DNA of 64,000 nucleotides, taken from the sequence record OM386662.1, one strand, 5' to 3'. Numbering within the stretch: the first letter of the stretch is position 1; each line of letters starts with the position of its first letter. Shown here piece after piece: positions 5,300 through 62,780 of the stretch. This DNA comes from Escherichia phage vB_EcoM_ESCO47. The translations under genes were made by a program, and so were the position numbers. The notes beneath the pieces were generated by a model. That model ran no database searches. It worked only from the letters and a program-made list of their open reading frames with translations, and had not been told where the DNA came from.

Positions 5300-5633
5300 T
5301 CTTGATGATTTGAATCTAGAAATCGTTGATGAATCCCCTTCTTCGGAAGGGGAGGACATTCGCAAAGAACGTGTGTTTAATGAATCTCTTAAAGTTATCC
5401 AATCGGCAATGGAGAACGTCATTCAAGAGATTCTTATTACACTTGAAGATGGTTCTCATCATATAGTCTATATTACAAAATTAGACTGGGTTGATGGAAA
5501 AATCGTAATGGACTTTGCAGTTCTTGATCAGGACAGAAAAGCAGAACTTGTGCCGCATGTTGAAAAGTGTGTTACAATGCAAGTACAACAAGCTTTTAAT
5601 GAACGAACCAAGAAAAAATTTAAATTCTTTTAA
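5289..5633 (+). CDS. 40: gp40-like head vertex assembly protein
   Basis: 114 aa; overlaps uvsX stop and immediately precedes gene 41 as in the T4 uvsX-40-41 operon; assigned by synteny. Confidence 0.6.
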   Translation: MMNNLDDLNLEIVDESPSSEGEDIRKERVFNESLKVIQSAMENVIQEILITLEDGSHHIVYITKLDWVDGKIVMDFAVLDQDRKAELVPHVEKCVTMQVQQAFNERTKKKFKFF

Positions 5634-7085: not shown

Positions 7086-7091
7086 TAAAAA

Positions 7092-7110
7092 GGAGACTTC
7101 GGTCTCCTTT
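7092..7110 (+). terminator. terminator-like hairpin after gene 41
   Basis: GGAGAC-TTCG-GTCTCC then TTT; short T tract. Confidence 0.4.
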
Positions 7111-7114
7111 CGGG

Positions 7115-7144
7115 GTTTACACCGCTCTTAAATCATGTTACTAT
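7115..7144 (+). promoter_or_regulatory. early promoter-like element
   Basis: -35 GTTTAC 7115-7120, 18-bp spacer, -10 TACTAT 7139-7144, then conserved AGACCTATCAA; ATG at 7171. Confidence 0.5.
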
Positions 7145-8427: not shown

Positions 8428-8462
8428 GTTTACATTATAGATGGACTATAGTATAGTAGTCC
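8428..8462 (+). promoter_or_regulatory. early promoter-like element with inverted repeat around -10
   Basis: -35 GTTTAC 8428-8433, -10 TATAGT 8452-8457 inside GGACTA...TAGTCC repeat 8443-8462; ATG at 8487. Confidence 0.5.
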
Positions 8463-8486
8463 TATCAAATCAACTAAGGAGATAAA

Positions 8487-20956: not shown

Positions 20957-20978
20957 ACCTTCATAACGAGGAGACAAC

Positions 20979-22796
20979 ATGATTAAAAATGAAATTAAAG
21001 TATTATCAGACGTAGAACATATTAAGAAACGTAGTGGTATGTATATTGGTTCTTCGGCTAAAGAAGCACATGAGCGTTTTTTGTTTGGTAAATATCAACA
21101 AGTTGAATATGTTCCTGGTCTGGTTAAATTAATCGATGAGATTATTGACAACTCGGTTGATGAAGCTATTCGTACATCATTTAAGTTCGCAAATAAAATT
21201 GATGTGCAAATTAAAAATAATCAAGTTTCGGTGGAAGATAACGGACGTGGTATTCCTCAAGGTTTAGTTACCGACCAAACAGGTGAACAAATTCCTGGGC
21301 CTGTAGCAGCCTGGACTATTCCAAAGGCCGGCGGTAACTTTGGCGATGACTCTGAACGCAAGACCGGTGGTATGAACGGCGTCGGGAGTAGTTTAACTAA
21401 TATCTTCTCTACGTTGTTTACAGGCATCACGTCAGATGGCGAAAATGAAATCACTGTTAATTGTTCAAACGGAATGGAAAACAAATCATGGTCTTCTAAG
21501 AAATCTAAAGGTAAAGGAACTAAAGTAATCTTCACTCCTGATTTCTCTTCATTTGAAGAGCATAATTTATCTCAAATTTATTTAGATATTACTTTAGACC
21601 GACTTCAAACATTGGCAGTCGTTTATCCTGATATCAAGTTCACATTTAATGGTAAAAAGGTTGATGGTAATTTTAAACGATTTGCTAAACAATTTGGCGA
21701 AGATAACATCATTCAAGAAAACGATAAAGTGTCAATCGCATTCACAACATCGCCTGACGGTTTTCGACATTTGACGTATGTGAACAACATTCATACTAAA
21801 AATGGTGGACATCATGTTGAATGTGTAATGGATGATATCTGCGAACATCTTTTGCCCGGTATTAAAAAGAAATATAAGGGTATTGAGGTAACTAAAGCTC
21901 GTGTTAAAGAATGTCTCACGATGCTGATGTTTATTCGTGATATGAGCAACATGCGTTTTGATTCTCAGACTAAAGAACGTTTAACGTCAACGTATGGTGA
22001 TATTCGTAATCATATCCAATTAGATGCTAAGAAAATTGCTCAGTCACTTCTTAAAAATGAAGCTCTGATTATGCCTATTGTTGAAGCAGCATTAGCTCGT
22101 AAATTAGCAGCAGAAAAGGCCGCCGAAACTAAAGCAGCTAAAAAGGCCACTAAAGCAAAAGTTCATAAGCATATTAAAGCTAATCAATGTGGTAAAGATG
22201 CAGATACGACATTGTTCTTAACAGAAGGTGATTCGGCAATTGGTTATCTCATTGATGTTCGTGACCGTGAACTACACGGCGGATTCCCATTACGTGGTAA
22301 GGTGATGAATAGCTGGGGTATGTCATATGCTGATATGATGAAGAACAAAGAGCTCTTTGATATCTGTGCTATCACAGGTCTTATTCTCGGTGAAAAGGCA
22401 GAGAACACGAACTATCGTAATATCGCAATTATGACCGATGCCGATCATGACGGTCTTGGAAGTATCTATCCGGCTTTGCTTGCTTTCTTTAGTAATTGGC
22501 CTGAATTGTTTGAACAAGGACGTATTCGCTTTGTTAAAACTCCGGTAATTATTGCACAAATTGGCAAAACACAAAAATGGTTTTATACTGTAGCTGAGTA
22601 TGAAGAAGCTAAAGAATCATTACCAAAACACGGTATTCGATATATTAAAGGACTTGGTTCACTTGAAAAATCCGAATACCGTGAAATGATTCAGAATCCA
22701 GTTTATGACGTAGTTAAATTGCCTGAAAACTGGAAAGAGTTGTTTGAAATGTTGATGGGTAATGACCCGGATCTTCGTAAAGAATGGATGTCCTAA
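20979..22796 (+). CDS. 39: DNA topoisomerase II large (ATPase) subunit, fused gp39+gp60 equivalent
   Basis: 605 aa GyrB-like; continuous frame with no bypass gap or inserted element. Confidence 0.92.
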   Translation: MIKNEIKVLSDVEHIKKRSGMYIGSSAKEAHERFLFGKYQQVEYVPGLVKLIDEIIDNSVDEAIRTSFKFANKIDVQIKNNQVSVEDNGRGIPQGLVTDQTGEQIPGPVAAWTIPKAGGNFGDDSERKTGGMNGVGSSLTNIFSTLFTGITSDGENEITVNCSNGMENKSWSSKKSKGKGTKVIFTPDFSSFEEHNLSQIYLDITLDRLQTLAVVYPDIKFTFNGKKVDGNFKRFAKQFGEDNIIQENDKVSIAFTTSPDGFRHLTYVNNIHTKNGGHHVECVMDDICEHLLPGIKKKYKGIEVTKARVKECLTMLMFIRDMSNMRFDSQTKERLTSTYGDIRNHIQLDAKKIAQSLLKNEALIMPIVEAALARKLAAEKAAETKAAKKATKAKVHKHIKANQCGKDADTTLFLTEGDSAIGYLIDVRDRELHGGFPLRGKVMNSWGMSYADMMKNKELFDICAITGLILGEKAENTNYRNIAIMTDADHDGLGSIYPALLAFFSNWPELFEQGRIRFVKTPVIIAQIGKTQKWFYTVAEYEEAKESLPKHGIRYIKGLGSLEKSEYREMIQNPVYDVVKLPENWKELFEMLMGNDPDLRKEWMS

Positions 22797-28237: not shown

Positions 28238-28273
28238 GTTTACAGCTAAGTAGGACTATGATATAGTAGTCCT
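28238..28273 (+). promoter_or_regulatory. early promoter-like element with inverted repeat
   Basis: -35 GTTTAC 28238-28243, -10 TATAGT 28262-28267; arms AGGACTA 28252-28258 and TAGTCCT 28267-28273; ATG at 28294. Confidence 0.5.
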
Positions 28274-28293
28274 ATCTAAAGGAGGATAACATC

Positions 28294-28749: not shown

Positions 28750-28779
28750 GTTTACATCAAGGTAGGATTATGGTATAGT
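28750..28779 (+). promoter_or_regulatory. early promoter-like element
   Basis: -35 GTTTAC 28750-28755, -10 TATAGT 28774-28779, then AGTCCTATCAA; ATG at 28808. Confidence 0.5.
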
Positions 28780-28807
28780 AGTCCTATCAAAATATGAGGA
28801 ACACAAA

Positions 28808-31208: not shown

Positions 31209-31288
31209 GCTTCACAGGCCTAGCCCTCGGGTTCTTGGTCACAGTCACATTGTTAGTCATCTTACTTCTATGGTTAGACCGTGAATGA
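31205..31288 (+). CDS. hydrophobic micro-protein (27 aa)
   Basis: ATGA-coupled to gene 52 stop; ends at the terminator hairpin. Confidence 0.25.
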   Translation: MSFTGLALGFLVTVTLLVILLLWLDRE

Positions 31289-31310
31289 GGAGCCTTCGGG
31301 CTCCTTTTTG
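31288..31310 (+). terminator. rho-independent terminator after gene 52 region
   Basis: GGAGCC-TTCG-GGCTCC then TTTTT. Confidence 0.7.
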
Positions 31311-34169: not shown

Positions 34170-34829
34170 TTATTTAGCCCTTCCTAAAATCCTGGCCGCT
34201 TGGTTACAAATAGAAGCTAAGCGGTCTTCTCCTATTATTTTAGTCCCCTTATACCAATACATTGAAACAGCCCCAGCATATACGTTGTCCAAATTAAAAT
34301 AAGGGCAACTATACATGTAGTTTAGTTCCTCAGTTTTAGACTTTGTTGGCAGAAATGCGAACTCTGTTTTAGAATCAAAGTGCCTTCCACTTAAATGAAT
34401 TAAATATTCATTCATAGTCTTATCCACCGGAAATCCACCTAAAGACTTCTCGGAAATGGTAGTAGGTAGTTTACCCTCATATGCAATAAGGTCCACAAAA
34501 TAATTTAAATTTTTAGGGCGGAAAGAATACACTGCACTAAAATCTGCACCGGAAGAGATATGAACTATCTGTAATTGTTCTAAAGCCGCAGATTCAAAAC
34601 GTTGGTCTCTTTCCTTTTGTATAACTTCTGTGTATGTGTCATATTTGGCTCTCACATAATAGTCGAGGAATATAGTTCCTTTATACCATATCAAAGCCAT
34701 AATGAATAAAAGAACAACAACGGCCACACGAGAAACAAGAACTTTCCCGGTGGCATTATCTTTGAAAATACGATCTAACAACCCAAATAGAATATCACTA
34801 GGAGAGAATGATACTCTAGGCGCTGCCAT
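34170..34829 (-). CDS. t: holin T
   Basis: 219 aa; MAAPRVSFSPSDILFG...single TM...C-terminal periplasmic domain matching T4 T as I recall it. Confidence 0.93.
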   Translation of the reverse strand: MAAPRVSFSPSDILFGLLDRIFKDNATGKVLVSRVAVVVLLFIMALIWYKGTIFLDYYVRAKYDTYTEVIQKERDQRFESAALEQLQIVHISSGADFSAVYSFRPKNLNYFVDLIAYEGKLPTTISEKSLGGFPVDKTMNEYLIHLSGRHFDSKTEFAFLPTKSKTEELNYMYSCPYFNLDNVYAGAVSMYWYKGTKIIGEDRLASICNQAARILGRAK

Positions 34830-34839
34830 AATACCTCCT

Positions 34840-35391
34840 TTATCTGAAGATATTTATCACTCTTTTAAAAAATGATTTTCGTTCTTTTTCTGGCCATGCC
34901 GGGAATTCGCCACCTAAATGCTCATGCTTTTCATAAAGAGCAAAGAAACGTTTAAGATTCTGGTAATAGAATTTCTCGTCTTTATTTGCAACAGAAGCTT
35001 CAACCAAATTAGACAAGACTTGGTACTCTTTAAAAAGTTGATCAAGTTTTCTATTTCTAAGAGTCAAACGTTTATAACACTCATCCTCTTTCCAGCCGCC
35101 ATCTATCCAAAGATCAAACTCGCCAGGCTCATCAAATGTTGCACCCTGTAAGCTTCCTATACTATCAATTTTAACGGGTTGTTTATCGAAGGTCCAAGCT
35201 AGTTTACCGCGATGATCTTCTTCGTAAATCCAATCTTGAATGCGTTCGTCAAAAACAATCGCATATCCTTCTTTATGATCAAGTGGTTTTTTAGTTGTAG
35301 AATGCGCCGGGAGCCCAATGCCTTTAACAGGTTTATATGTTTCTTCTTTATAAAATTCTTTAGTGTCAAAATAGTAGTGGTAAATTTTCAT
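34840..35391 (-). CDS. 38: tail fibre assembly protein gp38 (T4-type)
   Basis: 183 aa; MKIYHYYFDTKEFYKEE...HLGGEFP matches T4 gp38 as I recall it. Confidence 0.9.
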   Translation of the reverse strand: MKIYHYYFDTKEFYKEETYKPVKGIGLPAHSTTKKPLDHKEGYAIVFDERIQDWIYEEDHRGKLAWTFDKQPVKIDSIGSLQGATFDEPGEFDLWIDGGWKEDECYKRLTLRNRKLDQLFKEYQVLSNLVEASVANKDEKFYYQNLKRFFALYEKHEHLGGEFPAWPEKERKSFFKRVINIFR

Positions 35392-35399
35392 TATTATAA

Positions 35400-35415
35400 A
35401 GGGCCCGAAGGCCCT
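35400..35415 (-). terminator. hairpin between genes 37 and 38 (minus strand)
   Basis: Minus-strand AGGGCC-TTCG-GGCCCT with weak U tract; likely attenuator or stability element. Confidence 0.35.
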
Positions 35416-35419
35416 CTCC

Positions 35420-38400
35420 TTAAGCTAAACGAACGATATAGTTAAACGCAACGTTTTTAACAGTGTTCTCTGTATTACCTGTTGCGTTAACTGTTATTGT
35501 GTGACTATGTGAGCCTAATGCAACGGTGTGTGTATGAGCACCAATACCTACAGTATGCGTATGAGCACCAACGGCCACGTTATGTGTATGTGCTCCAGCC
35601 GAAGCAGCAGTACCAGATAAAGAGTGACTGTGGTTGCCCTGACTGTCTGTTTTCGCACAATAACCAGCTCCCTGCTGGTTGGTTCCTTTAACCGTGGATA
35701 CACTTGCCGGAATGGTTACTGTTCCGTATTGGCTCCAACCACTACTGCTCATCCTTAAACCATCTGTGTGAGCATGGGCGCCGGTTGAGTTTGTGGAACC
35801 GCTCAGACTATGTGTATGCGCACCAGCTGAAGCAGCAGATTTGGTACCGTAGTCAAAACTCGAACTTGTCTTAGTACCGTAGTCAAAACTTGACGACGTT
35901 TTTGTACCTAGATCAACCGAGTTAGAAGAAGCACTATGGGTATGAGATTTAACACCATCTGCTTCTGTACTCAACACTGCACGACCACTCGGTTTACCTT
36001 TAATAGTTTGTCCACGCATATCAGGAATAGTTCCTGAAGTATATACTGCACCTAATTTAGGATACGCCGCTTTGTCAAAAGTCTGGCCTTCCATAATAGC
36101 ATAACCCACAGGAGGTGTATCAGTTGGCCATGGAATCGGAGCACCAATCGGATAACTAGAGATGATATCCGTCTTAAGACTATTTATCGTCGTATTTAGG
36201 TTAGCAAAGTTACCAGTACCACCTGTGATATTACCATCAGTACCAATTATAACGGTATTAATTTCAATTTTATTAGGTGAACGGAACGAGCCATCACGTC
36301 TAAATTGCCATGCTAAATCCGCCTTTTGTGGACCTGTTGAATCATTATCACCGCCTTCATGATAGTGAATTCTAAAATCACCCGTACTAATTAATGTACC
36401 CAAAGAATAACAACTATCGCCCTGGACATATCGTTGTTTCAAAATAGGAACGTAAGTACTTGTATCTGTACGATTAATATTCATGTAGAATGGGGCACGA
36501 ACATTTTCATTATTTTGCGAGACAAATGAACCAGCCCCTGCTGGTTTAACAATATCAGTACATTCAGCATCAATATATGTCGACTGCCCTAATTGCATAC
36601 GGAAATTAGGACTTATACGCGAATTAGTGGTCAACACAACGAGTTTTGTATCATTGTCTACGGTGACCATATTACCGCCGGCACCATCATCACCTAATGT
36701 AACGGTATGACGCATTTGTACCATGCCATTATTAAGACTAATACTTAATGGGCGGAGATTACTTATTCCACCGCTTTCACCAGCATCTTTGGGAGTTGGA
36801 ATAATATGCAATGCTGCTTCAGAGCGGCGGAAAATAGCACCGTATTCGGCATTCCAAATTCTTAATGCATCATTAGTTCCACCAATTTTAACTTGACCAC
36901 TAATAGAAGAACCGCCTGTTAAACTAAGTCCATTGCTCATGGTAACTGCACCATTTAAAGTGCTCAAACCATCAACTTTAAGACTTCCTGCAGTGTTAAT
37001 AGAGCCGTTAGCATTAACTTGTCCATTGAACTGGGATACAACAGGCCCAGTAGTTTCAGAGCCACTTGGAGCCATACGCTGTGAATAAAAATAATATCCT
37101 TGTCCATCAGAAACTTCGAATACTGTTTCGCGCGCTTTGTCACCGGTAGCATTAAAACTATTACCCCAAGCTTTAACAGTCACATAACTTTTATTCTGTC
37201 CTGCTCTAGAACCAGCTTCCCACAAGATTTGTTTTGTGCCGTCTACCCCTGTAGGAGCTTTAAATGTTAAAGCCGACGTATTATCGTCACCTGCAAAATA
37301 CATGCCGGATCGTATAGAAATACGTTGGGTTGAATAGATGGTACCATCAGCCCTAAGATTTAATTCATTATTACCGGTTTTGATGTTTAATATGCCAGGT
37401 TCAACAATAAGACCCTCGGACATAGATACTGCCATACGTCCTGTGCCACGGAAATAATGATAAAACTTACCATTACTATTATACCCAAGATGAGTTTGTC
37501 CATCACCGTTAGCATTACCATCAGGAGTTGTTTGAATTGTTAAAACAGAAGCGTTATTTCCAGGCATTACCCAGGTGGCACCAGAGTCATCTGAGCGACC
37601 GACAGTCAAACGTTTCGTACTTAAAAATACCCCATTTGTTAAAGTCGCAGTAGAAGTACCTTGTGCAACAAAATCAATTTTACCTGAAGCGATAGATTTG
37701 AATCCAGTAGATGGGTCCCCTAGAACTATATAACATTCGCCCATAGCGCCAGTTGAACCATAGTTATTAATGTTTTCATCTGCGGTAATTGTGCCAATTG
37801 CGAGAGAACGACGTAATACTAAAGATCCATCATTACGAAGACCCATCCGTTTATTAATCGCGGTGTCACCTGTCCACCAAGAAATCTCTTCGCTTTTACC
37901 AGTTTGTGAAGAAACTAATTCATGATAAATCGTGCCGCCGGATTTTGCGCGGAATTTACGAAGATAGTTAATACCGTTTTCTTCACCTGTGCCAGGATAA
38001 ACATACTGAACTAATGATTGCGAATCGTATTGTCCAAATGCTTTTGTGTCTAAAACAATGGTTTTCGTATTAACTTGTGGAGCAGAAACTATACCAGTAG
38101 CGGAGTTAATATTGCCTGACGCAGAAATATTACCTGTTGCAACAACCAAGCTACCAGAATCAACCGTAAATCCACCATCGCGTCGGAAAGTCCAATATTT
38201 CGAAGTGCCTGTTTCATCAATATAATGCATCTTCATTGAGCCTTCATTAACTAAGGTCCCTAATGAGAAAGTACCATCTTTATAACGTTGCTTAATTAAC
38301 GGGTTATATTCTGAAGTAGCGGTTGATGCGGAAATATCCATGAAAATAGGGGCTTTTGCCGTGTGTTGACCGGCCCAAGAACCAACTCCGGTGCCCTTAT

Positions 38401-38674
38401 AAGCAAATTCGATATATCCACCTGATGCAACATTTTGTGAGCCTATTAAATTAAATGTACCTGTCTGAGTATAGTTACCTACATGAGTTACATTACCATT
38501 AATATCCCCACCTTTAGCGAACCCAAGGTTAATAATATTGCCTAAATCATCTTTTGTAAAAATAGTACGATCTTTTAAGTTTATAGCCAATTCACCTTCG
38601 GCTAATTGCGCAGCTGTTGGATTAACACCAGCTACTTTGCTTCTTTTAAATTGTATTTGCTTAATAGTAGCCAT
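35420..38674 (-). CDS. 37: long tail fibre distal subunit gp37
   Basis: 1084 aa; C-terminal His boxes GAHTHN/GAHTHT/GAHTHT/GSHSHT and terminal [11 protein letters not shown]. Confidence 0.9.
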
Positions 38675-38688
38675 AAGTCCTCTTTAAC

Positions 38689-39351
38689 TTAATAATAGCC
38701 GAAATCTTGTACAGAATCTTTAATAACAATTTGGTCAAAACGAGGAACGTGTGAAGGATCTGACGCAGGGTTCTGGGAGAAAAAGTTTGGAGCTGTTAAT
38801 GCACCAATCATAGTATCGCCTGAACGAAGTACACGGCTGTTTGCGTTATTATTAACTGTATTTATTTGCCCATCAACATAATCTTTACGAGTAAGGTCAT
38901 TAGCCGCGATAGGAGCAACTGCATTACTTCTTATTTGACCTACTGCTGTCACAACGCCTTTTGTACTAATATCACCATTACGTGCATTAATTACAACAGT
39001 TCGGTCTGCTGAACCTTGTGATGATTTAAAACCAATACCATTCCACGAAACGATGTCGATATTTGCCATATCAAAAGTAGCTGAATCACCGTTACCTGGA
39101 TAAACACCACACTGTTGACTACTACCTACGGTAGGAACATGTACGCCTCCATTAAATCGAACAGTTGCAGCGTAAGTACCACCATTAGCTTTAGAAACGA
39201 AATCGTTATCAGCCGCTTGTGGTTTGTTATATTCAGAATATAATTTAAACGTTTTGTATAAGATGTCGTCGCCAGCTGGCATTAAAGGGAAATTACCTTG
39301 GTGCCAAATGACCGAACCACCTGTTGTTGAACCTGCTTTTAAATCTGCCAT
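38689..39351 (-). CDS. 36: long tail fibre protein gp36
   Basis: 220 aa; size and position between 35 and 37. Confidence 0.85.
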   Translation of the reverse strand: MADLKAGSTTGGSVIWHQGNFPLMPAGDDILYKTFKLYSEYNKPQAADNDFVSKANGGTYAATVRFNGGVHVPTVGSSQQCGVYPGNGDSATFDMANIDIVSWNGIGFKSSQGSADRTVVINARNGDISTKGVVTAVGQIRSNAVAPIAANDLTRKDYVDGQINTVNNNANSRVLRSGDTMIGALTAPNFFSQNPASDPSHVPRFDQIVIKDSVQDFGYY

Positions 39352-39377
39352 TATTTGGCCTCCTTATAAGTATACCG

Positions 39378-39385
39378 TATTTATA
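39378..39385 (-). promoter_or_regulatory. late promoter (TATAAATA) for gene 36
   Basis: Plus strand TATTTATA = minus TATAAATA, about 27 nt upstream of the gene 36 start codon at 39351. Confidence 0.7.
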
Positions 39386-39410
39386 CAAAAATGGGAGACC
39401 GAAGTCTCCC
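39386..39410 (-). terminator. rho-independent terminator after gene 35 (minus strand)
   Basis: Minus-strand GGGAGAC-TTCG-GTCTCCC then ATTTTTG; immediately precedes the gene 36 late promoter. Confidence 0.6.
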
Positions 39411-39414
39411 TAAA

Positions 39415-40542
39415 TTATTCCGATGCTTCTCTAAATTCTTGACCAAATACTTTACCCGTATCAGTTGAAGATTGGGTAGGGAACGTCATAATATCTGGAG
39501 GACTTAAAGATTCTGAAACATAATTTACACGAATACCATTTACACCAAATTCTGCGGCCTTCGGTATACTTCCATTACACGAAACTTCAGTGAATATAAT
39601 ATTTCGTAATCCACCTTGACCGGCTGCCGCAGTTCGATAACAATAAATTGTGAACCCGTCAGCATCAGCAGGAATTTTAGTATACTCTTCAAATATCTTC
39701 CATTGTCCTGCTGTTCCATCAAAGTTTAAATCTTTAAATGAAATAGGAGACGTTGAAGGAGATTTAAAGAAACGTATAGAAAGTCTTGTGGTTCCTTGAG
39801 CTAACAAATCAGCGTCAGCCATCATCTGGAATTTCGTATAAAGAAAATCACCAGGCTTTAAATTGTAGTTAGCAAGAGGAGTCACTAGTGATGTTGTAGG
39901 CATCCTTTTAACTTCATTATTAGTTCCACCAACGGTAGATAAAAATGTATCCGTCGATTCAAATGTGCGAACAGGGAAACCGGTAGCACCTATATCATCA
40001 ATTGTATCATAAACGACTTCTAACGGAGTGCTATAATCAGCACGAGACTTTTTATTTCCATATTTTATATGCTCTAAAGCAATAGCGTTCTTTCCTGACA
40101 CATAAAACGCGGAATATGAAATGTCCACGATATTTAACACCGGTTGAGCCATAGGAATAACTGAACTACCTGCTTTAGTGAACCAAGTTAAAACTTCAGG
40201 CGGGAAGTTAGTCTTATTATTTGTCACAAAAGCAAATATGAATCCGGGAGCGTAAGAGTTCATAAATGCAACAAAAGCATTTGAAGTTGCGTCGTTTACA
40301 GTAGAAAAATTATAAACTTTACTTTCTACTATGGCACCTGACGACGGATTTATAATGCGAACATTTAATCCAACTGCGAAAACTTGACCACCGAGCGGAC
40401 TATCCTGAAAATTTATATACGGGTTTGTAGTTGAAAGCGGGCATGAACCCGCTATACTTAATTTAAATCTTACTGAATTGCTTTCCGATAAAAATGGCGT
40501 TTGGACGTATCCTTGTCCAAACTTAGCCATAAATTTTTCCAT
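39415..40542 (-). CDS. 35: long tail fibre hinge protein gp35
   Basis: 375 aa; size and position between 34 and 36. Confidence 0.85.
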   Translation of the reverse strand: MEKFMAKFGQGYVQTPFLSESNSVRFKLSIAGSCPLSTTNPYINFQDSPLGGQVFAVGLNVRIINPSSGAIVESKVYNFSTVNDATSNAFVAFMNSYAPGFIFAFVTNNKTNFPPEVLTWFTKAGSSVIPMAQPVLNIVDISYSAFYVSGKNAIALEHIKYGNKKSRADYSTPLEVVYDTIDDIGATGFPVRTFESTDTFLSTVGGTNNEVKRMPTTSLVTPLANYNLKPGDFLYTKFQMMADADLLAQGTTRLSIRFFKSPSTSPISFKDLNFDGTAGQWKIFEEYTKIPADADGFTIYCYRTAAAGQGGLRNIIFTEVSCNGSIPKAAEFGVNGIRVNYVSESLSPPDIMTFPTQSSTDTGKVFGQEFREASE

Positions 40543-40550
40543 AATACCTC

Positions 40551-43500
40551 TTATTCAATCCATTCGAATTTAACGGTTTTATTAATTGGATCTGGAACAA
40601 TTCTAACATTACCTATACGCAAGAAGTCACGAATAGTAAGGTTACCAATTACCGCGTTATCTGAAGGCAGAGCACCGACATCTGACGGTGAAGGTGGGTT
40701 ACCACTATCAAACACCATAGCAAAAGACGTCCAAGCATCTTTATTTCTCTGCCAGGTTCTAGTGTAACGTATACTACCGCCATTAGCTCCTGTCGGATAA
40801 CAAATCCAATCTTGATAAAGAGAATTTAAACTATTACCGAATTGGGTTAATGTGCCTGGATATTTAATTTCTTGAACACGATTACCTGCAGCATCCCTAG
40901 TCCAATAACCTGGGAACTGAGTATATGTCGCTTCATCATTAATATCGATAGACCAGAATCCAACCGTGCCTTCGGTAGGTTTACGAGTATAAAGATCAGC
41001 CGTTTTAGAGCCACTAGAAATGATTCGACTGTTTACAGTTAAACCACCTGAAGTAATAGTAGCACCATTTGTTATCTGTACACCGTTATCTAATCTAACC
41101 AGACCTGTAGCATTATTGATAGTCAATGGGCGTAATGAGTTAAATGTCCCAGACTGATTACCAGAATCGGTTAAAACGAAATATGAACTATTTCCGGCGT
41201 TATGAATCATAAAGCCGTAGTTACCATTAATCGCTCTAAATGCTATAGGAGATCGAGAAACAATTTCACCATTAGACGAAATAGAACCGGTAGAAGTGGT
41301 CGTACCTGTCACAGTCAAATTACCTGTTGCATTAAGGTTTACGGATGTCAATCCACCATTAACGTTCATCTGGATATTGCCAAGATTATTTCTCTGAGTA
41401 TAGAAATGATGGCTTGTTTCATCACTAACTTCAAATACTGTAGCTCGTGTTTTATCAGCACCGCTGCCAAACGTATTACCAAAAACTCGAATAGAAACGT
41501 TTTCTGTTGAACTTGTGGCGTACTGATTTCCCTTTTCGAAAATTAGACGCGGAGCAGTATCGGTATTAGCAATAGTTAATGTACTATTTGCGGATACTGA
41601 ACCACCAAAGAATCCGGTGCTTGTAGATACTAAAGGAGCACTCAGGTTCAATTGTTTAGTCAGACTTAAAGAACCATTAACTGTCTGGTCGATATCTCTA
41701 CGGATAAACTGAAGAGAATCCAGGCCATCTAACAACTCAGTATCAGCGGCTTTTGCTTTCAATGGTAAATAGTTAGCAAGCACACGGTTAAATTCATAAG
41801 GAGAAATAGCATAACTATTTTTCTCGTATAAGTTTAGATCCTGAGTATTGCCTTGTGTATCATTACCAACAAAAGTGATAGAACCGGATGAAGTTTTAAC
41901 GAATCCGCGAATCGCCGTAGTAGCAGCCCATGTTGGTTCATTCTGGACAATCCATTTTAAATTCTTAGGAGATACAGCGGTATTAGCTGAAGTACCAGTA
42001 ACTGTTTCTGCTTGGGTGGCGACTTTAATTACACCTTCAGAAGTTTCAGTGGACTTAGTCCCTAAAAGCTTTTTAGGAGTAATAAGAACATCATCTAAAG
42101 TTCCTGCATTAGATTCTGCCTGGGTCGCTACGCGAAGTGTACCACGTTGTGTTTCATTTGCTTTAGAAATATCGAGAGTATAATGGTTCCACAAGGTTCC
42201 TTCTTCAATAAGTCCGGAATCAGAATTAACACCAGTACGGTCAGAAGAATCAAAATGAGTTTTAACTTTCAAGGGAGTTGAAATTCGAGTATCATCAGTC
42301 CCAGCATCAAATTCAACTTGAGTTGCAATCTCTGCAATACCACTTAAAGCTTCTGTAGCTTTCCTGTCATTTAACGTTTTAGGCGTTACCGCACGAGTAT
42401 AATCAGTCCCAGCATCAGTCTCTGCTTGCGTAGCAATTTCAATTAAACCAATACGTCCGTCTGTAGAAGTTTTCTTATGCAGAGTTTCGGGGGTGACAAC
42501 AGCATGAGAATAACCAGCTTGAGATTGACCTGCAATTACTTCACTTTCAAGAGCCAGAATAGTAGCACCCTGTTGAGTAGAAGTCGCTTTATACTGATCG
42601 AGAGCTTTAGGCGAAATAGTTAACGTAGTTGTGTCTTTATTATAAACGTTAGTGCCTGCAGTCCCACGAGTAGCAGCAGGAGTAGCTGAAGCAGTCGATA
42701 CATATTTAACTATACCTGATAGAGTTTCTGAACCCTGACGTGCCTGTAATTTCTTAGGAGTGATAATAGTTGTATCATCGGTCCCAGCATCAGTCTCTGC
42801 TTGAGTAGCTATTTCTGCTAAACCGCGACGAGTTTCAGTCGCTGTACGCTCATTTAATTTCTTAGGTGTAACAATTGTATCATCAACAAATGTTGCAGTA
42901 GAATCCTGATTAACTTGAGCGGTAGTAGCAGTTTTTGCAATACCACGTCGAGTTTCAGTCGCTGTACGATTAGCTAATGTCTCTGGGGTAATTGCAACTT
43001 CTTTAGCCGGAGAATTTTCTAAATCAACATTTGCTTGTGCTTGGTTAGCCAAAGCAATAACACCTACACGAGCACGAGTAGTATCATTTAATGAATCAAC
43101 ACGTTCTACAGTCGGTATGTTTTGTTGAACAATCCAATAGTTGTTTCTACCGGCTTCTTCGATATAAGCTAATTCAATTACAGGAACATAAGAAGTAGTC
43201 CCATTAAATTCTAACTCTGTAACGGAAACCCAATCGGCATCAGGTGGATATTCTGAACGTTTAGGGAACTGAAGAAGTTCTACACTACTATAAATTGTAT
43301 CGGTACTTGCGGCTTTAATTTTAACCGTTTGACCTTTACGCATATAGTTTAATGAAATTTTAACAGTGTCTCCACTCAAAATTCCGGTAGGAAGAGTAAG
43401 ATTCACAGTTGATACTGAAGCATTGTTAGCACCAAACACGAGAATTTCTTCGTTAGGGCTAATTACGGTGTCAGTTCGTACAATGCGCAGTCGTGATTTC

Positions 43501-44396
43501 TGGTCACCTTCCCATACTCTCCACAAACTAGATGCTGCATCAAAAATAAAAAGAGCATCAGCAAAATTACGACCTTCAGCGATATGTGTCCCAACTTCAC
43601 GGATAGAAGTCGTATCATCAAATGTTTTAACAATTGTATGATACAAAGGGTTTAATTTATCCAAATCGACGAGATTAATTACGTCACCGTTATTAGCGTT
43701 GCGTGGCAATGTAATATTAATAGGAGCTGCACTGGTAAAACGACGAATAATAAAATCATTAGCTTGCGCCTGATAAGGTGCCGCTGGAGTTACTATAGTA
43801 GATTTGTTACCATAATCAACAAGATACATGTGCCATAAACGATTGCTGAAAACTAAAACAATCTGAGATTTAGGGTGAGTCATTAAAACCGAACGAACCT
43901 GTTCGCCTTTAAAGTTCACAATACTCTGAACTGAAGCGTTGATTTGCACTTTAACTGTGCCTGGTTTGCCACCAATATCCGCTAAAACGATTGTATCACC
44001 ATCAACAGGAGAGCTAGGCAAAGTGAAGTCCATGTCATTCCCGGCGGCTGTATTAACAGAAATCGATTCACCTGATGCTAATTGATATGACCCAGTAGAA
44101 ACGGTTATCCACTGTGCATCTGTACGAACTGCACGCCACAGACCTAAATTGAAATTACCTGCCGGAGAAGGAATATCATTAATTGCTTGATATAAGCGGT
44201 TATCATAAAGAACAACAAACCCGCGCACGTATCCGCGTGTATTACTATAATTCTGTACGGTGTTTTCTTGTACCAGGAAGTCAACGTTTACGCCATCAGT
44301 ACCAACTGTACGGTCGGCTAATGCTACGTTAACAATCTTGTCGCCACCGGCGTCCAGTCCGTCTTCGGCTCTGAACTTACGTTTGATGTCGGCCAT
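40551..44396 (-). CDS. 34: long tail fibre proximal subunit gp34
   Basis: 1281 aa; internal repeats of roughly 30 aa (ATQAETDAGTDDT...TPKKL type). Confidence 0.9.
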   Translation of the reverse strand: MADIKRKFRAEDGLDAGGDKIVNVALADRTVGTDGVNVDFLVQENTVQNYSNTRGYVRGFVVLYDNRLYQAINDIPSPAGNFNLGLWRAVRTDAQWITVSTGSYQLASGESISVNTAAGNDMDFTLPSSPVDGDTIVLADIGGKPGTVKVQINASVQSIVNFKGEQVRSVLMTHPKSQIVLVFSNRLWHMYLVDYGNKSTIVTPAAPYQAQANDFIIRRFTSAAPINITLPRNANNGDVINLVDLDKLNPLYHTIVKTFDDTTSIREVGTHIAEGRNFADALFIFDAASSLWRVWEGDQKSRLRIVRTDTVISPNEEILVFGANNASVSTVNLTLPTGILSGDTVKISLNYMRKGQTVKIKAASTDTIYSSVELLQFPKRSEYPPDADWVSVTELEFNGTTSYVPVIELAYIEEAGRNNYWIVQQNIPTVERVDSLNDTTRARVGVIALANQAQANVDLENSPAKEVAITPETLANRTATETRRGIAKTATTAQVNQDSTATFVDDTIVTPKKLNERTATETRRGLAEIATQAETDAGTDDTTIITPKKLQARQGSETLSGIVKYVSTASATPAATRGTAGTNVYNKDTTTLTISPKALDQYKATSTQQGATILALESEVIAGQSQAGYSHAVVTPETLHKKTSTDGRIGLIEIATQAETDAGTDYTRAVTPKTLNDRKATEALSGIAEIATQVEFDAGTDDTRISTPLKVKTHFDSSDRTGVNSDSGLIEEGTLWNHYTLDISKANETQRGTLRVATQAESNAGTLDDVLITPKKLLGTKSTETSEGVIKVATQAETVTGTSANTAVSPKNLKWIVQNEPTWAATTAIRGFVKTSSGSITFVGNDTQGNTQDLNLYEKNSYAISPYEFNRVLANYLPLKAKAADTELLDGLDSLQFIRRDIDQTVNGSLSLTKQLNLSAPLVSTSTGFFGGSVSANSTLTIANTDTAPRLIFEKGNQYATSSTENVSIRVFGNTFGSGADKTRATVFEVSDETSHHFYTQRNNLGNIQMNVNGGLTSVNLNATGNLTVTGTTTSTGSISSNGEIVSRSPIAFRAINGNYGFMIHNAGNSSYFVLTDSGNQSGTFNSLRPLTINNATGLVRLDNGVQITNGATITSGGLTVNSRIISSGSKTADLYTRKPTEGTVGFWSIDINDEATYTQFPGYWTRDAAGNRVQEIKYPGTLTQFGNSLNSLYQDWICYPTGANGGSIRYTRTWQRNKDAWTSFAMVFDSGNPPSPSDVGALPSDNAVIGNLTIRDFLRIGNVRIVPDPINKTVKFEWIE

Positions 44397-46769: not shown

Positions 46770-47678
46770 ATGTTTAAACGTAAATCTACTGCTGACCTCG
46801 CTGCTCAAATGGCTAAACTGAATGGTAATAAAGGTTTCTCTTCAGAAGATAAAGGCGAATGGAAGCTGAAGCTAGATGCATCAGGTAATGGTCAGGCGGT
46901 AATTCGTTTCTTGCCAGCAAAAACTGATGATGCACTACCATTTGCAATTCTTGTTAACCACGGTTTCAAGAAAAATGGTAAATGGTATATTGAAAATTGC
47001 TCTTCTACACATGGTGATTACGACTCTTGTCCTGTATGTCAGTACATTAGTAAAAATGACCTGTACAATACCAACAAAACCGAATATTCTCAACTGAAAC
47101 GTAAAACTTCTTATTGGGCTAATATTCTGGTTGTTAAAGACCCTCAAGCTCCAGATAACGAAGGTAAAGTATTTAAATATCGTTTCGGTAAAAAGATTTG
47201 GGACAAAATCAATGCAATGATTGCTGTTGATACCGAAATGGGTGAAACTCCGGTTGATGTTACTTGTCCTTGGGAAGGTGCTAACTTTGTTCTTAAAGCC
47301 AAGCAGGTTTCTGGTTTCAGTAACTACGATGAATCTAAATTCTTGGGTCAATCTGAAATTCCTCGTATTAACGACGAATCTTTCCAGAAAGAATTGTTTG
47401 ACCAGATGGAAGACCTGTCTGAAATGACTGCTAAAGACAAGTTCAAGTCCTTTGAAAAATTGACTGAATCTTTTGTTAAGGTTCTTGGTACTGCAGCAAT
47501 GGGTGGTGCAGCAGCTGCCGCAGCTAGTGTTGCAGATAAAGTTGCTTCTGATCTTGATGATTTTGATAAAGACATGGAAGCATTCAATACAACATCCACC
47601 AAATCCGCTGATGATTTCATGAGTTCTAGCACATCTTCTGATGATGGCGACCTCGATGACCTGTTAGCTGGTCTATAA
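46770..47678 (+). CDS. 32: single-stranded DNA-binding protein gp32
   Basis: 302 aa; zinc-site CxxC...C region and acidic C-terminal tail. Confidence 0.95.
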
Positions 47679-47684
47679 TAAATC

Positions 47685-47706
47685 GGGAGACTTCGGTCTC
47701 CCTTTT
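47685..47706 (+). terminator. rho-independent terminator after gene 32
   Basis: GGGAGAC-TTCG-GTCTCCC then TTTT. Confidence 0.75.
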
Positions 47707-47732: not shown

Positions 47733-47761
47733 GTTTACTTCTTCCCTGGATGTGTTAGTAT
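47733..47761 (+). promoter_or_regulatory. early promoter-like element
   Basis: -35 GTTTAC 47733-47738, -10 TAGTAT 47756-47761, then AGACCTATCAA; ATG at 47791. Confidence 0.5.
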
Positions 47762-47790
47762 AGACCTATCAACAACATGAGGAAATCAAA

Positions 47791-48183
47791 ATGGAAATCG
47801 GAAAATCTTATATCATTAACCCTTTATTTAAAGACGACTTTGTTCAAGAAGCACCGCACAATAACGCTAAGATGTTAAAATTGATTGAACTCCATGGGCC
47901 CAGTTTTGTTGTAAACGGAATGGAACCTGATTATGATAGCGATACGCTAAACGTAGTAAGTGTAACTATGGAAGACGGTACTGTATGTTCTGCCGGCGGT
48001 GAAATTGAAACTTATTTTGAGATTTATTACGATGAGTTCAAATACTTTACTGAGGTAGATTTAGTAAAGCCTCAACCTACTAACAAAGGTATAGCTTTAG
48101 GTGTAACAAAAATCCATTGTATCGTAGATGAAACCAATGTCGACGAAGTCATCGAACTTTTGCAAAAAACTTTTAAAAAGTAG
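47791..48183 (+). CDS. hypothetical protein (130 aa)
   Basis: Promoter element upstream; no motif recognised. Confidence 0.5.
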   Translation: MEIGKSYIINPLFKDDFVQEAPHNNAKMLKLIELHGPSFVVNGMEPDYDSDTLNVVSVTMEDGTVCSAGGEIETYFEIYYDEFKYFTEVDLVKPQPTNKGIALGVTKIHCIVDETNVDEVIELLQKTFKK

Positions 48184-48222
48184 TTTATAACAAGATAGGG
48201 CTATGTTATAGTAGCCCTATCT
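48183..48222 (+). promoter_or_regulatory. early promoter-like element with long inverted repeat
   Basis: -35 GTTTAT 48183-48188, -10 TATAGT 48207-48212; 11-bp arms AGATAGGGCTA 48193-48203 and TAGCCCTATCT 48212-48222; ATG at 48247. Confidence 0.5.
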
Positions 48223-48246
48223 AATAAAAGTGAAGAGGAGAATAAA

Positions 48247-61465: not shown

Positions 61466-61628
61466 TTGCTATCATGCGTCAGCAAAAGGTTAGCTGTGTA
61501 AGTCATGGTAGGTATGATGACAGGTTTATGGTTATCCTGTCGGTAAATATACAAAACCTATGTTCCCCTCGAGGGCTTACGCAGGCAATGTCAATAAGTC
61601 CTGCATTTTCATTTAAAGAGAATTTATA

Positions 61629-61808
61629 ATGGCAAAACAAGCTAAAGCAAAGAAAGCAGTTGAAAAGAAAGTTGATGGTACCTCTAAACGCGCTGGATAC
61701 AAGCGTGGGTCGAACTCTCGTATTAATCAAACCGTTGAGAAGATCATGCGCAGAGCACGTGCAGTTCTTCGAGATGATGCTTCTCGTTTTGGAAAGGTTG
61801 TTGCATAA
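61629..61808 (+). CDS. small basic protein (59 aa)
   Basis: Lys/Arg-rich; followed by a strong terminator; weak RBS; below the ORF-track cutoff. Confidence 0.4.
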   Translation: MAKQAKAKKAVEKKVDGTSKRAGYKRGSNSRINQTVEKIMRRARAVLRDDASRFGKVVA

Positions 61809-61813
61809 TTTTA

Positions 61814-61836
61814 GGGAGACTTCGGTCTCCCTTTTG
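61814..61836 (+). terminator. rho-independent terminator
   Basis: GGGAGAC-TTCG-GTCTCCC then TTTT; same hairpin sequence as at 47685. Confidence 0.75.
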
Positions 61837-61872
61837 TGCGTTTAGGGCAGAAAAAGTTTAAAAAAAAAAGAT

Positions 61873-61902
61873 GTTTACTCTCCTGTAGGATGTGTTACTA
61901 TA
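61873..61902 (+). promoter_or_regulatory. early promoter-like element
   Basis: -35 GTTTAC 61873-61878, -10 TACTAT 61897-61902; ATG at 61943. Confidence 0.5.
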
Positions 61903-61942
61903 GACTTGTACCACCTAATCAATAAAACAACCGGAGAATAAA

Positions 61943-62314
61943 ATGAACACTATCAATTTAAATGCTACAATTAAATGCCGTGACCATGATGGATATAAAT
62001 CTCAAGTTGTTAACGAGTTACAGTGGATGGTTCGTTCAGTTCAAGGTGATGTGGTTTATTGTACAACTCCTGATGGCCCTTCAGACGATTTTTGTTATCA
62101 TATCGAAATCGAAAACTTTTTCACTGGTGAAATTTACCGTCTGAATTCTACAGTTTATGGCTGTATTCGTTCTAAAACTTACGAAGATGAAGAAACTGGT
62201 TACTCTGAAGATGTTGTATGGTACGAAAACGCCAGAAATCGCGCAGAGACATTAATCGAGAAGATTAAAGCAAAAGGTGTTATTGATTCAGCTAAGTGGA
62301 CAAAAATCAAATAA
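61943..62314 (+). CDS. hypothetical protein (123 aa)
   Basis: Promoter element and GGAG RBS upstream. Confidence 0.5.
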   Translation: MNTINLNATIKCRDHDGYKSQVVNELQWMVRSVQGDVVYCTTPDGPSDDFCYHIEIENFFTGEIYRLNSTVYGCIRSKTYEDEETGYSEDVVWYENARNRAETLIEKIKAKGVIDSAKWTKIK

Positions 62315-62318
62315 AAAT

Positions 62319-62358
62319 GTTTACTTTGGTACAGGATATGTTATTATATACCTGTACC
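62319..62358 (+). promoter_or_regulatory. early promoter-like element with inverted repeat
   Basis: -35 GTTTAC 62319-62324, -10 TATTAT 62342-62347; arms GGTACAGG 62328-62335 and CCTGTACC 62351-62358; ATG at 62389. Confidence 0.5.
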
Positions 62359-62764: not shown

Positions 62765-62780
62765 AGGGGCTTCGGCCCCT
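62765..62780 (+). terminator. terminator-like hairpin
   Basis: AGGGGC-TTCG-GCCCCT; weak T tract. Confidence 0.35.

What the first reader, a model, noticed from the sequence alone, without database searches (positions are those of the whole stretch)
47685..47702. Same 18-nt terminator hairpin reused at several sites and on both strands
GGGAGACTTCGGTCTCCC occurs at 47685 and 61814 on the plus strand and at 39393..39410 on the minus strand, with a shortened form at 7092. Other terminators use different stems with the same UUCG loop. Repeated identical hairpins are further short homologies that could mediate module exchange.
Basis: seen in the sequence. Interest (0 to 1): 0.3.

Follow-up and report, generated by a model that had tools for sequence, protein, structure and literature searches.

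The report
Reused UUCG terminator hairpin, T4-like phage
The repeated 18-base hairpin is real, but it is the ordinary, already catalogued kind of transcription-terminator hairpin that T4-like phages (here an RB69-like phage) place after several genes, so it is a correct but unsurprising observation.

Summary
Observation confirmed. GGGAGACTTCGGTCTCCC is exact at 47685(+), 61814(+) and 39393-39410(-). A two-mismatch variant with a 9-bp stem lies at 7089-7110(+). No copy is expected by chance.

The window is an RB69-like T4-type phage (Mosigvirus). Each copy starts 3-6 nt after a stop codon (genes 32, 30.9, 35, 41), on the sense strand, and is followed by a short U-rich tract. Then comes a T4 early promoter (three plus-strand copies) or a late promoter TATAAATA (minus-strand copy).

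In RB69 the same core hairpin occurs six times. All six are listed as TransTerm terminators in Nolan et al. 2006. A relative's GenBank record annotates the gene-32 copy as a terminator. C(UUCG)G hairpins in T4 intercistronic regions have been known since 1988.

Orthologous sites in other T4-like phages carry different but always complementary stems. The exact 18-mer also recurs in at least 120 unrelated viral contigs, usually before a T run, so identity does not by itself show common descent.

The "module exchange" idea is the published PeSL model. Two indels relative to RB69 lie next to copies, but their junctions fall in the promoter or 5'UTR, not in the hairpin. Verdict: already known, low interest.

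The parts
47685..47702 (+). Hairpin GGGAGAC-UUCG-GUCUCCC, starting 6 nt after the gene 32 (ssDNA-binding protein) stop at 47676-47678. Tail is UUUUGAGUAU.
   Evidence: Called terminator-like. RNA fold -13.4 kcal/mol, z -3.2. Identical element in RB69 at 146032-146049, listed as a TransTerm terminator, and in KAW3E185, annotated as an ARNOLD terminator.
47733..47761 (+). T4-type early promoter, GTTTAC-N17-TAGTAT, 30 nt after the gene 32 hairpin. Together they form a PeSL-type terminator/promoter unit upstream of the frd.2 homologue (47791-48183).
   Evidence: Read directly from the sequence.
61813..61832 (+). Hairpin A-GGGAGAC-UUCG-GUCUCCC-U (8 bp), starting 4 nt after the stop (61806-61808) of the 30.9 homologue. 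Tail is UUUGUGCG.
   Evidence: -14.7 kcal/mol. Identical in RB69 at 132140-132157, a TransTerm terminator '30.8<--30.9'. Not called by the strict U-tract scan.
61873..61901 (+). Early promoter GTTTAC-N17-TACTAT, 40 nt after the 30.9 hairpin, preceded by an A10 run (61860-61869).
7089..7110 (+). Variant hairpin AAAGGAGAC-UUCG-GUCUCCUUU (9 bp; core 16-mer 7092-7107 identical to the others), starting 3 nt after the gene 41 helicase stop (7083-7085).
   Evidence: -12.8 kcal/mol. Identical in RB69 at 20962-20983; TransTerm terminator 20965-20980. Not called by the strict U-tract scan. T4 has no hairpin at this site.
7115..7144 (+). Early promoter GTTTAC-N18-TACTAT, 4 nt after the gene 41 hairpin. 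The breakpoint of the 449-bp ORF041c indel relative to RB69 falls between its -35 and -10 boxes (7121-7139).
39393..39410 (-). Hairpin GGGAGAC-UUCG-GUCUCCC on the minus (sense) strand, starting 4 nt after the gene 35 stop (39415-39417). Tail is AUUUUUGU.
   Evidence: -13.5 kcal/mol. RB69 has AAAGGAGAC..GUCUCCUUU here, a compensatory A-U to G-C difference. Nolan 2006 predicts a terminator between genes 35 and 36 in all six genomes compared.
39378..39385 (-). T4 late promoter box TATAAATA, 7 nt after the hairpin and upstream of gene 36 (start 39351).
   Evidence: read directly from the sequence. The same arrangement is in T4 and RB69.

Best explanation
The four copies are Rho-independent (intrinsic) transcription terminators or attenuators of an RB69-like T4-type phage, acting as RNA.

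Proposed mechanism. When host RNA polymerase transcribes past the stop codon of genes 32, 30.9, 41 (early/middle, + strand) or 35 (late, - strand), the nascent RNA folds into a 7-9 bp G+C-rich stem. The stem is capped by the very stable C(UUCG)G tetraloop. Together with the short U-rich tract that follows, this releases a fraction of transcripts. The hairpin left at the 3' end should also protect the upstream mRNA from 3' exonucleases. A promoter placed 4-40 nt downstream (T4 early GTTTAC-N17/18-TAnTAT, or late TATAAATA) restarts transcription, so each gene block is an insulated unit.

Why the stem is identical. The most likely reason is a narrow design space combined with lineage history: G-rich 5' arm, CUUCGG, C-rich 3' arm, U tract. 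The same stem is the commonest one in T4-like phages and recurs in unrelated phages. Occasional copying between sites cannot be excluded.

Shown: the sequence, foldability, sense-strand bias, position, covariation, and conservation of the elements in RB69.

Inferred: actual termination, its efficiency, and mRNA protection.
For: (1) Position and strand. All four copies start 3-6 nt after a stop codon on the sense strand. All 12 strong C(UUCG)G hairpins in the window have UUCG on the sense strand.

(2) Structure. The 18-mer folds at -12.0 kcal/mol, and copies in context at -12.8 to -14.7 with z about -3 to -4. Two copies pass a strict stem-plus-T-run scan.

(3) Covariation. In 23 distinct hairpins from the sites after genes 32 and 41 and between 35 and 36 in T4-like phages, 99.4% of cells pair. 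Six of 7 pairs show changes on both sides, and 0 of 500 shuffles reach this. RB69 versus the window at 35/36 differs by a compensatory A-T to G-C change.

(4) Prior annotation. RB69 has the core GGAGAC-UUCG-GUCUCC six times: after genes 41, 8, 23, 30.9, 32 and 35. All six are TransTerm terminators with score 100 in Additional file 6 of PMC1524935. That paper states that terminators between 35 and 36 and after 23 are conserved in 6 of 6 genomes, and after 32 in 5 of 6. MK373782 annotates the gene-32 copy as a terminator.

(5) Generic use. The exact 18-mer is in at least 120 IMG/VR contigs that blastn does not relate to the window, and 107 of 122 occurrences have at least 5 T in the next 8 nt. 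A permuted-stem control gives 108 contigs and an arm-swapped control 47.

(6) T4 C(UUCG)G intercistronic hairpins are a classic described class (Tuerk et al. 1988, as summarised in PMC8948821).
Against: No transcript data exist for this phage, so termination is inferred. The U tracts are short (UUUUGAG, UUUGUGCG, AUUUUUG). At 7091 the U's are inside the stem. Two of the four copies fail the strict U-tract scan, so efficiency may be partial. Other UUCG hairpins in the window have no U tract at all (35398-, 62765+) or lie inside a gene (5334+). The motif therefore also serves non-terminator roles. The covariation set was assembled with a stem-finding routine, which inflates the percentage paired.
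Confidence: 0.85

Rival explanations
1. The hairpins matter mainly as DNA. As parts of composite terminator/promoter cassettes (PeSLs), they provide short homologies where recombination inserts, deletes or swaps the small gene modules they flank.
For: Three copies have the PeSL layout of a stem-loop followed by an early promoter. Relative to RB69, ORF041c (449 bp) and ORF245c (237 bp) are missing exactly downstream of the 7091 and 47685 copies. A block at about 61,550-62,350 containing the 61814 copy is ~100% identical to RB69 while its flanks are 82-91%. Nineteen of 29 T4-like loci have a frd.3-type ORF after the gene 32 terminator, which the window lacks. PeSL-mediated shuffling, including a crossover mapped in a stem-loop loop in RB49, is published (PMC2839356, PMC4122927).
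Against: Both indel junctions map outside the hairpin: one in the promoter spacer and one in a repeated 5'UTR/RBS. The distal RB69 promoter of the ORF041c indel has no hairpin. The 100% block has the hairpin in its middle, not at an edge. Homology among copies is limited to 16-18 bp. From general knowledge of T4 recombination, that is far below the roughly 50 bp needed for efficient homologous exchange. The minus-strand copy is inverted relative to the others, and no corresponding inversion is seen. The strict sense-strand orientation of the asymmetric loop points to selection on RNA, not DNA.
Confidence: 0.15
2. The hairpins do not terminate transcription. They act only as 3' barriers that stabilise processed mRNAs against exonucleases, or as processing or translation-control structures.
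For: U tracts are short and two copies fail the strict terminator scan. Similar UUCG hairpins without U tracts lie between genes 37 and 38 and at 62765, and one lies inside gene 40. The literature ascribes varied roles to T4 CUUCGG hairpins, including mRNA stabilisation (PMC8948821).
Against: All four copies do have a T-rich tail, as do 107 of 122 occurrences of the same 18-mer elsewhere. A promoter follows each copy, which makes sense if upstream transcription is stopped. TransTerm and ARNOLD both score them as terminators. Stabilisation and termination are not mutually exclusive.
Confidence: 0.12
3. The copies are identical because they are copied from one another within the genome. Mechanisms could be gene conversion, template switching between hairpins, or spread of a small mobile repeat, rather than independent selection.
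For: Different sites within one genome tend to share a stem. The window has 3 exact copies plus 1 variant among 12 UUCG hairpins. RB69 has 6 of 23. Contigs 2974737508 and 2974666281 have GGGAGAC at both gene 32 and 35/36. Contigs 2706795394 and 2706795408 have GGACC at 41, 35/36 and 32. T4 uses GGACTCC after both soc and 30.9. The binomial tail against the background frequency of this stem in T4-like loci is 0.02-0.09.
Against: There is no homology beyond the stem, no target-site duplications, and the spacing to the promoter is variable. The same 18-mer sits after gene 32 in phages whose gp32 is only 64-66% identical, and in at least 120 unrelated contigs. An isoenergetic permuted stem is about as common. 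The enrichment over background is marginal, and the background itself is not independent of phylogeny.
Confidence: 0.3
4. The repeats are a chance coincidence of short G+C-rich palindromes.
For: None beyond the short length.
Against: No match in 100 dinucleotide shuffles. Also the positional, strand and cross-genome conservation.
Confidence: 0.01

Closest known systems
RB69 predicted Rho-independent terminators (Nolan, Petrov, Bertrand, Krisch, Karam 2006, Virol J 3:30, Additional file 6)
   Same: These are the same elements at the same gene junctions: 41, 35/36, 32 and 30.9, plus after genes 8 and 23 outside the window's range. The core GGAGAC-UUCG-GUCUCC is identical, and the 18-mer is identical after 32 and 30.9.
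   Different: At 35/36 the window has GGGAGAC where RB69 has AGGAGAC, a compensatory change. The window lacks ORF041c and ORF245c next to two copies. In the passages and table I read, the paper lists coordinates but does not remark that six terminators share one stem.
C(UUCG)G hairpins of phage T4 intercistronic regions (Tuerk et al. 1988 PNAS 85:1364; summarised in PMC8948821)
   Same: UUCG tetraloop closed by C-G, G+C-rich stem, mostly intergenic, on the mRNA strand. T4 too reuses one stem at two sites: GGACTCC-UUCG-GGAGTCC after soc and after 30.9.
   Different: T4 has no GGGAGAC copy in the 84 kb examined. Its gene 32 terminator is GGGGACC-CUAGA-GGUCCCC. Its 35/36 hairpin is GGGACCC-UUCG-GGUUCCC. 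It has no hairpin after gene 41.
PeSLs (promoter-early stem-loops) of T4-type phages (Arbiol et al. 2010, PMC2839356; Comeau et al. 2014, PMC4122927)
   Same: A stem-loop terminator just upstream of a strong early promoter (TTTACW-N17-TAYWAT in the T4/PST group) within one intergenic region. They are associated with indels of small ORFs and proposed as recombination linkers. Three of the four copies fit, and two lie next to indels relative to RB69.
   Different: The minus-strand copy precedes a late promoter, not an early one. Most early promoters in the window (about 15 of 20) have no upstream UUCG hairpin. The crossover points inferred here lie in the promoter or 5'UTR part. Mini-circles were not testable.
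Bacterial repeated extragenic palindromes (REP/BIME) and other small mobile palindromic repeats
   Same: Short, imperfectly repeated extragenic palindromes found at the 3' ends of genes, which can stabilise upstream mRNA.
   Different: REPs share family-specific sequence beyond the stem and are linked to a dedicated transposase. Here nothing outside the 16-18 nt stem-loop is shared, and the same sequence arises in unrelated phages.

Membership tests
Rho-independent (intrinsic) terminator | G+C-rich stem-loop of about 5-10 bp with a short loop | tested here: met
   7-9 bp stems, 5 G-C pairs, 4-nt loop, -12 to -14.7 kcal/mol.
Rho-independent (intrinsic) terminator | U-rich tract immediately 3' of the stem | tested here: inconclusive
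   47685 and 39393 pass the scan requiring at least 5 T in 8. 61814 (UUUGUGCG after an 8-bp stem) and 7091 (U's inside the stem, then CGGGGUUU) do not. TransTerm scores all RB69 orthologues 100.
Rho-independent (intrinsic) terminator | Located downstream of a coding region on the transcribed strand | tested here: met
   The stems start 3-6 nt after the stops of genes 41, 32, 30.9 and 35. The loop reads UUCG on the sense strand in 12 of 12 hairpins.
Rho-independent (intrinsic) terminator | Transcript 3' ends map to the U tract, with reduced readthrough | not testable with these tools
   No RNA data for this phage. No T4 or RB69 Term-seq paper was found.
C(UUCG)G tetraloop hairpin | UUCG loop closed by a C-G pair | tested here: met
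   CUUCGG is invariant in all four copies.
PeSL (promoter-early stem-loop cassette) | Stem-loop and sigma70-like early promoter in the same intergenic region, stem-loop upstream of the promoter (T4/PST type) | tested here: met
   7091, 47685 and 61814 are followed at 4-40 nt by GTTTAC-N17/18-TA(C/G)TAT. The 39393(-) copy is followed by a late promoter instead, so it does not qualify.
PeSL (promoter-early stem-loop cassette) | Association with insertions, deletions or replacements of small ORFs between close relatives | tested here: met
   The ORF041c and ORF245c indels relative to RB69 lie directly downstream of the 7091 and 47685 units. No indel was seen at 61814 or 39393.
PeSL (promoter-early stem-loop cassette) | Recombination crossover inside the element, and mini-circle formation | tested here: inconclusive
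   The junctions fall inside the composite element (promoter spacer, 5'UTR) but not in the hairpin. Mini-circles are not testable here.
Mobile palindromic repeat (REP/MITE-like) | Shared sequence beyond the palindrome, terminal repeats or target-site duplication | tested here: not met
   Only the 16 hairpin columns plus promoter consensus positions are invariant, and the flanks are unrelated.

The most novel reading that the evidence does not exclude
The GGAGAC-UUCG-GUCUCC stem may be a lineage-specific 'house terminator' kept identical at six or more sites by an active process. That process could be gene conversion or template switching between hairpins, or recognition of the stem sequence by a phage or host factor. 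The alternative is independent selection for a stable hairpin. Points in favour: the stem is the one used after the most heavily expressed genes (23, 32). It is shared at the same sites by phages whose proteins are only about 65% identical (for example a 168,532-bp contig that is probably Klebsiella phage Marfa). Stems at different sites tend to match within a genome.
Probability: 0.1. Interest if true: 0.45.

Novelty: already known. Interest (0 to 1): 0.12.

Why it matters
It matters little beyond annotation. The result marks the ends of transcription units in this RB69-like phage after genes 41, 35, 32 and 30.9. It shows that identical short hairpins in phage genomes should not be read as evidence of shared ancestry or recombination, because the same 18-mer is used as a terminator in well over a hundred unrelated phage contigs. 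It adds two concrete examples of small-gene indels at terminator/promoter cassettes, consistent with the published PeSL model. In both, the crossovers lie in the promoter or 5'UTR portion rather than in the hairpin.

Tried and rejected
(1) Chance: rejected. No match in 100 shuffles.

(2) Larger mobile repeat: rejected. An alignment of the four copies with flanks shows nothing shared outside the hairpin and the promoter consensus.

(3) Known RNA family or tRNA-linked element: Rfam at gathering threshold gave 0 hits, and no tRNAs were found.

(4) Uniqueness of this 18-mer among equally stable designs: rejected. A permuted stem gives 108 contigs and an arm-swapped stem 47, against at least 120 (capped) for the target.

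(5) Sharp identity shifts relative to RB69 exactly at the hairpins: not seen. The shifts lie about 50-100 nt downstream at 47.7 kb, and about 250-500 nt away on either side at 61.8 kb.

(6) Comparison with T4 for breakpoints was uninformative, because T4 is only 67-93% (mostly 70-80%) identical and gives too many gaps. RB69 was used instead.

(7) RegB (GGAG-cleaving RNase) target idea: considered because GGAG lies in the 5' arm. It was dropped because the motif is buried in the stem and T4's own terminators at the same sites lack GGAG.

(8) Attempts to read Tuerk 1988 and Miller 2003 directly failed, as they are not held. Tuerk 1988 is cited via PMC8948821.

(9) No T4 or RB69 3'-end mapping paper was found.

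Full report
**Observation**

A search of the window for GGGAGACTTCGGTCTCCC with up to two mismatches finds exactly four sites. Three are exact: 47685-47702(+), 61814-61831(+) and 39393-39410(-). The fourth is AGGAGACTTCGGTCTCCT at 7091-7108(+). None of 100 dinucleotide-preserving shuffles gave a match.

The stem is self-complementary, but the loop is not. So the strand on which UUCG is read is informative. The 7091 copy is not a truncated form. Its two outer G-C pairs are A-T, and flanking A's and T's extend the stem to 9 bp (7089-7110).

A scan for all stems closing on TTCG lists 12 strong C(UUCG)G hairpins with 6-9 bp stems. Ten lie on the + strand among + strand genes. Two lie on the - strand inside the only - strand gene block (34170-44396). 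All 12 therefore read UUCG on the sense strand.

**Genomic setting**

The window is a T4-type phage. It is only 67-93% (mostly 70-80%) identical to T4 itself. It is 72-96% (most HSPs 80-96%) identical and collinear with RB69, genus Mosigvirus.

The + strand is the direction of early transcription: uvsX-40-41 ... 39-rIIA-rIIB-52-motA-asiA. Then come the tail-fibre and holin genes 34-38 and t on the - strand. Then rnh-59-32-frd-td-nrdA-nrdB ... 31-rIII-30.9-30.8.

- The 47685 copy starts 6 nt after the gene 32 stop.
- The 61814 copy starts 5 nt after the 30.9 stop.
- The 7091 copy's stem starts 3 nt after the gene 41 stop.
- The minus-strand copy starts 4 nt after the gene 35 stop.

Each copy is followed by a T-rich tail. 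Each of the three + copies is then followed, 4, 30 or 40 nt later, by a T4 early promoter (GTTTAC-N17/18-TA(C/G)TAT). The minus copy is followed 7 nt later by the late-promoter box TATAAATA and then gene 36.

**Structure**

The bare 18-mer folds at -12.0 kcal/mol. The copies in 41-42 nt context fold at -12.8 to -14.7 kcal/mol, with z-scores of -3.0 to -4.2. The simple terminator scan calls 47685(+) and 39410(-). It does not call 61814 or 7091, whose U tracts are shorter or partly absorbed into the stem.

**Comparison with relatives**

At the orthologous junctions T4 has quite different elements:

- GGGGACC-CUAGA-GGUCCCC after gene 32.
- GGGACCC-UUCG-GGUUCCC between genes 35 and 36.
- GGACUCC-UUCG-GGAGUCC after 30.9, which is the same stem T4 uses after soc.
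- No hairpin after gene 41.

RB69 has the window's elements at all four junctions. At 35/36 it reads AGGAGAC..GUCUCCU where the window reads GGGAGAC..GUCUCCC, a compensatory change.

I fetched loci encoding gp32, gp41, gp36 and gp31 relatives from IMG/VR. A perfect hairpin is found at the same place in nearly every T4-like genome, but with many different stems.

On 23 distinct hairpins from three junctions, 99.4% of cells pair. Six of 7 pairs show changes on both sides, and no shuffle reaches the observed covariation. One caveat applies: the hairpins were picked by a stem finder, so the percentage paired is inflated. The positional conservation with sequence turnover is the real evidence.

**Genome-wide check**

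In the complete RB69 genome there are 23 C(UUCG)G hairpins. Six of them share the core GGAGAC-UUCG-GUCUCC:

- after gene 41 (20962)
- after gene 8 (89886)
- after gene 23 (109233)
- after 30.9 (132139)
- after gene 32 (146031)
- after gene 35 (154318)

Four of these are the exact 18-mer.

All six coordinates appear as TransTerm-predicted Rho-independent terminators with score 100 in Additional file 6 of Nolan et al. 2006 (PMC1524935). That paper notes that terminators between 35 and 36 and after 23 are conserved in six of six T4-like genomes, and after gene 32 in five of six. GenBank MK373782 (phage KAW3E185) annotates the gene-32 copy as a 'putative transcriptional terminator, -16.10, ARNOLD'.

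The abundance of C(UUCG)G hairpins in T4 intergenic regions, and their exceptional stability, was described by Tuerk et al. 1988. I cite this as summarised in PMC8948821, because the original is not held.

**Why the stems are identical**

Only four of these loci show any blastn similarity to the window. In 107 of 122 occurrences at least 5 of the next 8 bases are T in the UUCG orientation. So the same sequence is used as a terminator by many unrelated phages.

Two isoenergetic controls are also far above random expectation. The permuted stem GGAGGAC..GUCCUCC gives 108 contigs. The arm-swapped CCCUCUC..GAGAGGG gives 47. The target is therefore popular but not unique, and a purine-rich 5' arm is preferred.

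Among T4-like loci chosen by protein homology, this stem is the commonest 7-bp C(UUCG)G hairpin, at 11 of 79 contexts. It follows gene 32, and sits at 35/36, in phages whose gp32 is only 64-66% identical. One of these is a 168,532-bp contig whose length matches Klebsiella phage Marfa.

There is some tendency for different sites within one genome to share a stem. Against the background frequency the excess is marginal, with a binomial tail of 0.02-0.09. Nothing outside the stem-loop is shared among the copies.

I conclude that convergence on a small design space plus lineage history is the likelier cause. Copying between sites is not excluded.

**Module exchange**

In that model, composite stem-loop plus early-promoter cassettes act as recombination linkers that shuffle small ORFs. 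Three of the four copies have that layout.

Relative to RB69, the window lacks ORF041c (449 bp) immediately after the gene 41 unit. It also lacks ORF245c (237 bp) immediately after the gene 32 unit.

Reading the junctions:

- The ORF041c event joins the -35 box of the first promoter to the -10 region of a second promoter. That second promoter has no hairpin.
- The ORF245c event lies between two copies of a 5'UTR/RBS repeat, ATCAACAA(C)ATGAG(A)GGAAA.

An approximately 800-bp block around the 61814 copy is ~100% identical to RB69 while its flanks are 82-91%. However, the hairpin lies in the middle of the block.

So module turnover does happen at these regulatory cassettes. The 18-bp hairpin is not where the crossovers map, and it is too short to be an efficient homologous substrate on its own. 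That last point rests on general knowledge of T4 recombination and was not tested here.

**Verdict**

The module-exchange inference is at best a restatement of a published model, and these data do not support a role for the hairpin itself. The elements are already catalogued in RB69 and belong to a class known since 1988.

Novelty: already known. Interest: low.

Noticed in passing
window 5334-5353 (+): A strong C(UUCG)G hairpin, TCCCCTTC-TTCG-GAAGGGGA, lies inside the coding region of the gene 40 homologue (ORF 5289-5633). It is at the same place in RB69 (22722) and in T4 (22329, TCCCCCTC..GAGGGGGA). The T4 difference is a compensatory C-G to T-A change, which suggests a conserved intragenic RNA structure upstream of gene 41.
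   Followed up: partly
window 35398-35417 (-) and 62765-62780 (+): Two UUCG hairpins have no U tract. One lies between the gene 37 stop and the gene 38 start; T4 has one there with a different stem at 159625. The other lies 15 nt before the ORF at 62796. They look like mRNA stabilisers or translation-coupling structures rather than terminators.
   Followed up: partly
window 8429-8464, 28239-28274, 28751-28786, 48184-48225 (+): Several early promoters carry an inverted repeat centred on their -10 box, for example TAGGGCTAT-gttata-GTAGCCCTA at 48.2 kb. T4 has the same design at 41->dmd. The KAW3E185 record annotates the 48.2-kb one as an ARNOLD terminator. Only readthrough transcripts from upstream could form this hairpin.
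   Followed up: partly
window 7121-7139 and 47768-47793: These are breakpoints of two small-ORF indels relative to RB69. ORF041c (449 bp) and ORF245c (237 bp) are absent here. The junctions lie in an early-promoter spacer and in a repeated 5'UTR/RBS sequence, as expected for PeSL-type events.
   Followed up: yes
window ~61550-62350: This block, covering 30.9, its terminator, the promoter and 30.8, is ~100% identical to RB69. The flanks are 82-91% identical. This suggests a recent exchange, with the right edge near the early promoter at 62320.
   Followed up: partly
L464 (RB69 72055-72282) versus L001 (T4 146575-146802): The small gene frd.3 follows gene 32 in T4. In RB69 it is annotated about 74 kb away in the e.6-e.8 region. 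In 19 of 29 T4-like loci a frd.3-type ORF follows the gene 32 terminator. The window has none there.
   Followed up: partly
window 31287-31306 (+) versus RB69 162726-162743: The 52->motA terminator has UUCG on the sense strand in the window (GAGGAGCC..GGCUCCUU). In RB69 it has a different stem with CGAA on the sense strand (AGGGAGC-CGAA-GCUCCCU). That amounts to a flipped loop.
   Followed up: no
window 61860-61869: An A10 homopolymer lies just upstream of the -35 box of the promoter after the 30.9 terminator. RB69 has A5 there, a length polymorphism in a likely UP-element region.
   Followed up: no
L079, L137 (IMGVR_UViG_2974546015_000001) and L061: A 39-bp stretch comprising the 35/36 hairpin, the U tract and the late promoter TATAAATA is 97% identical between the window and distant Klebsiella-type T4-like contigs. 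Blastn finds no other similarity to the window within those two loci. The window's 35/36 intergenic region is closer to theirs than to RB69's.
   Followed up: partly
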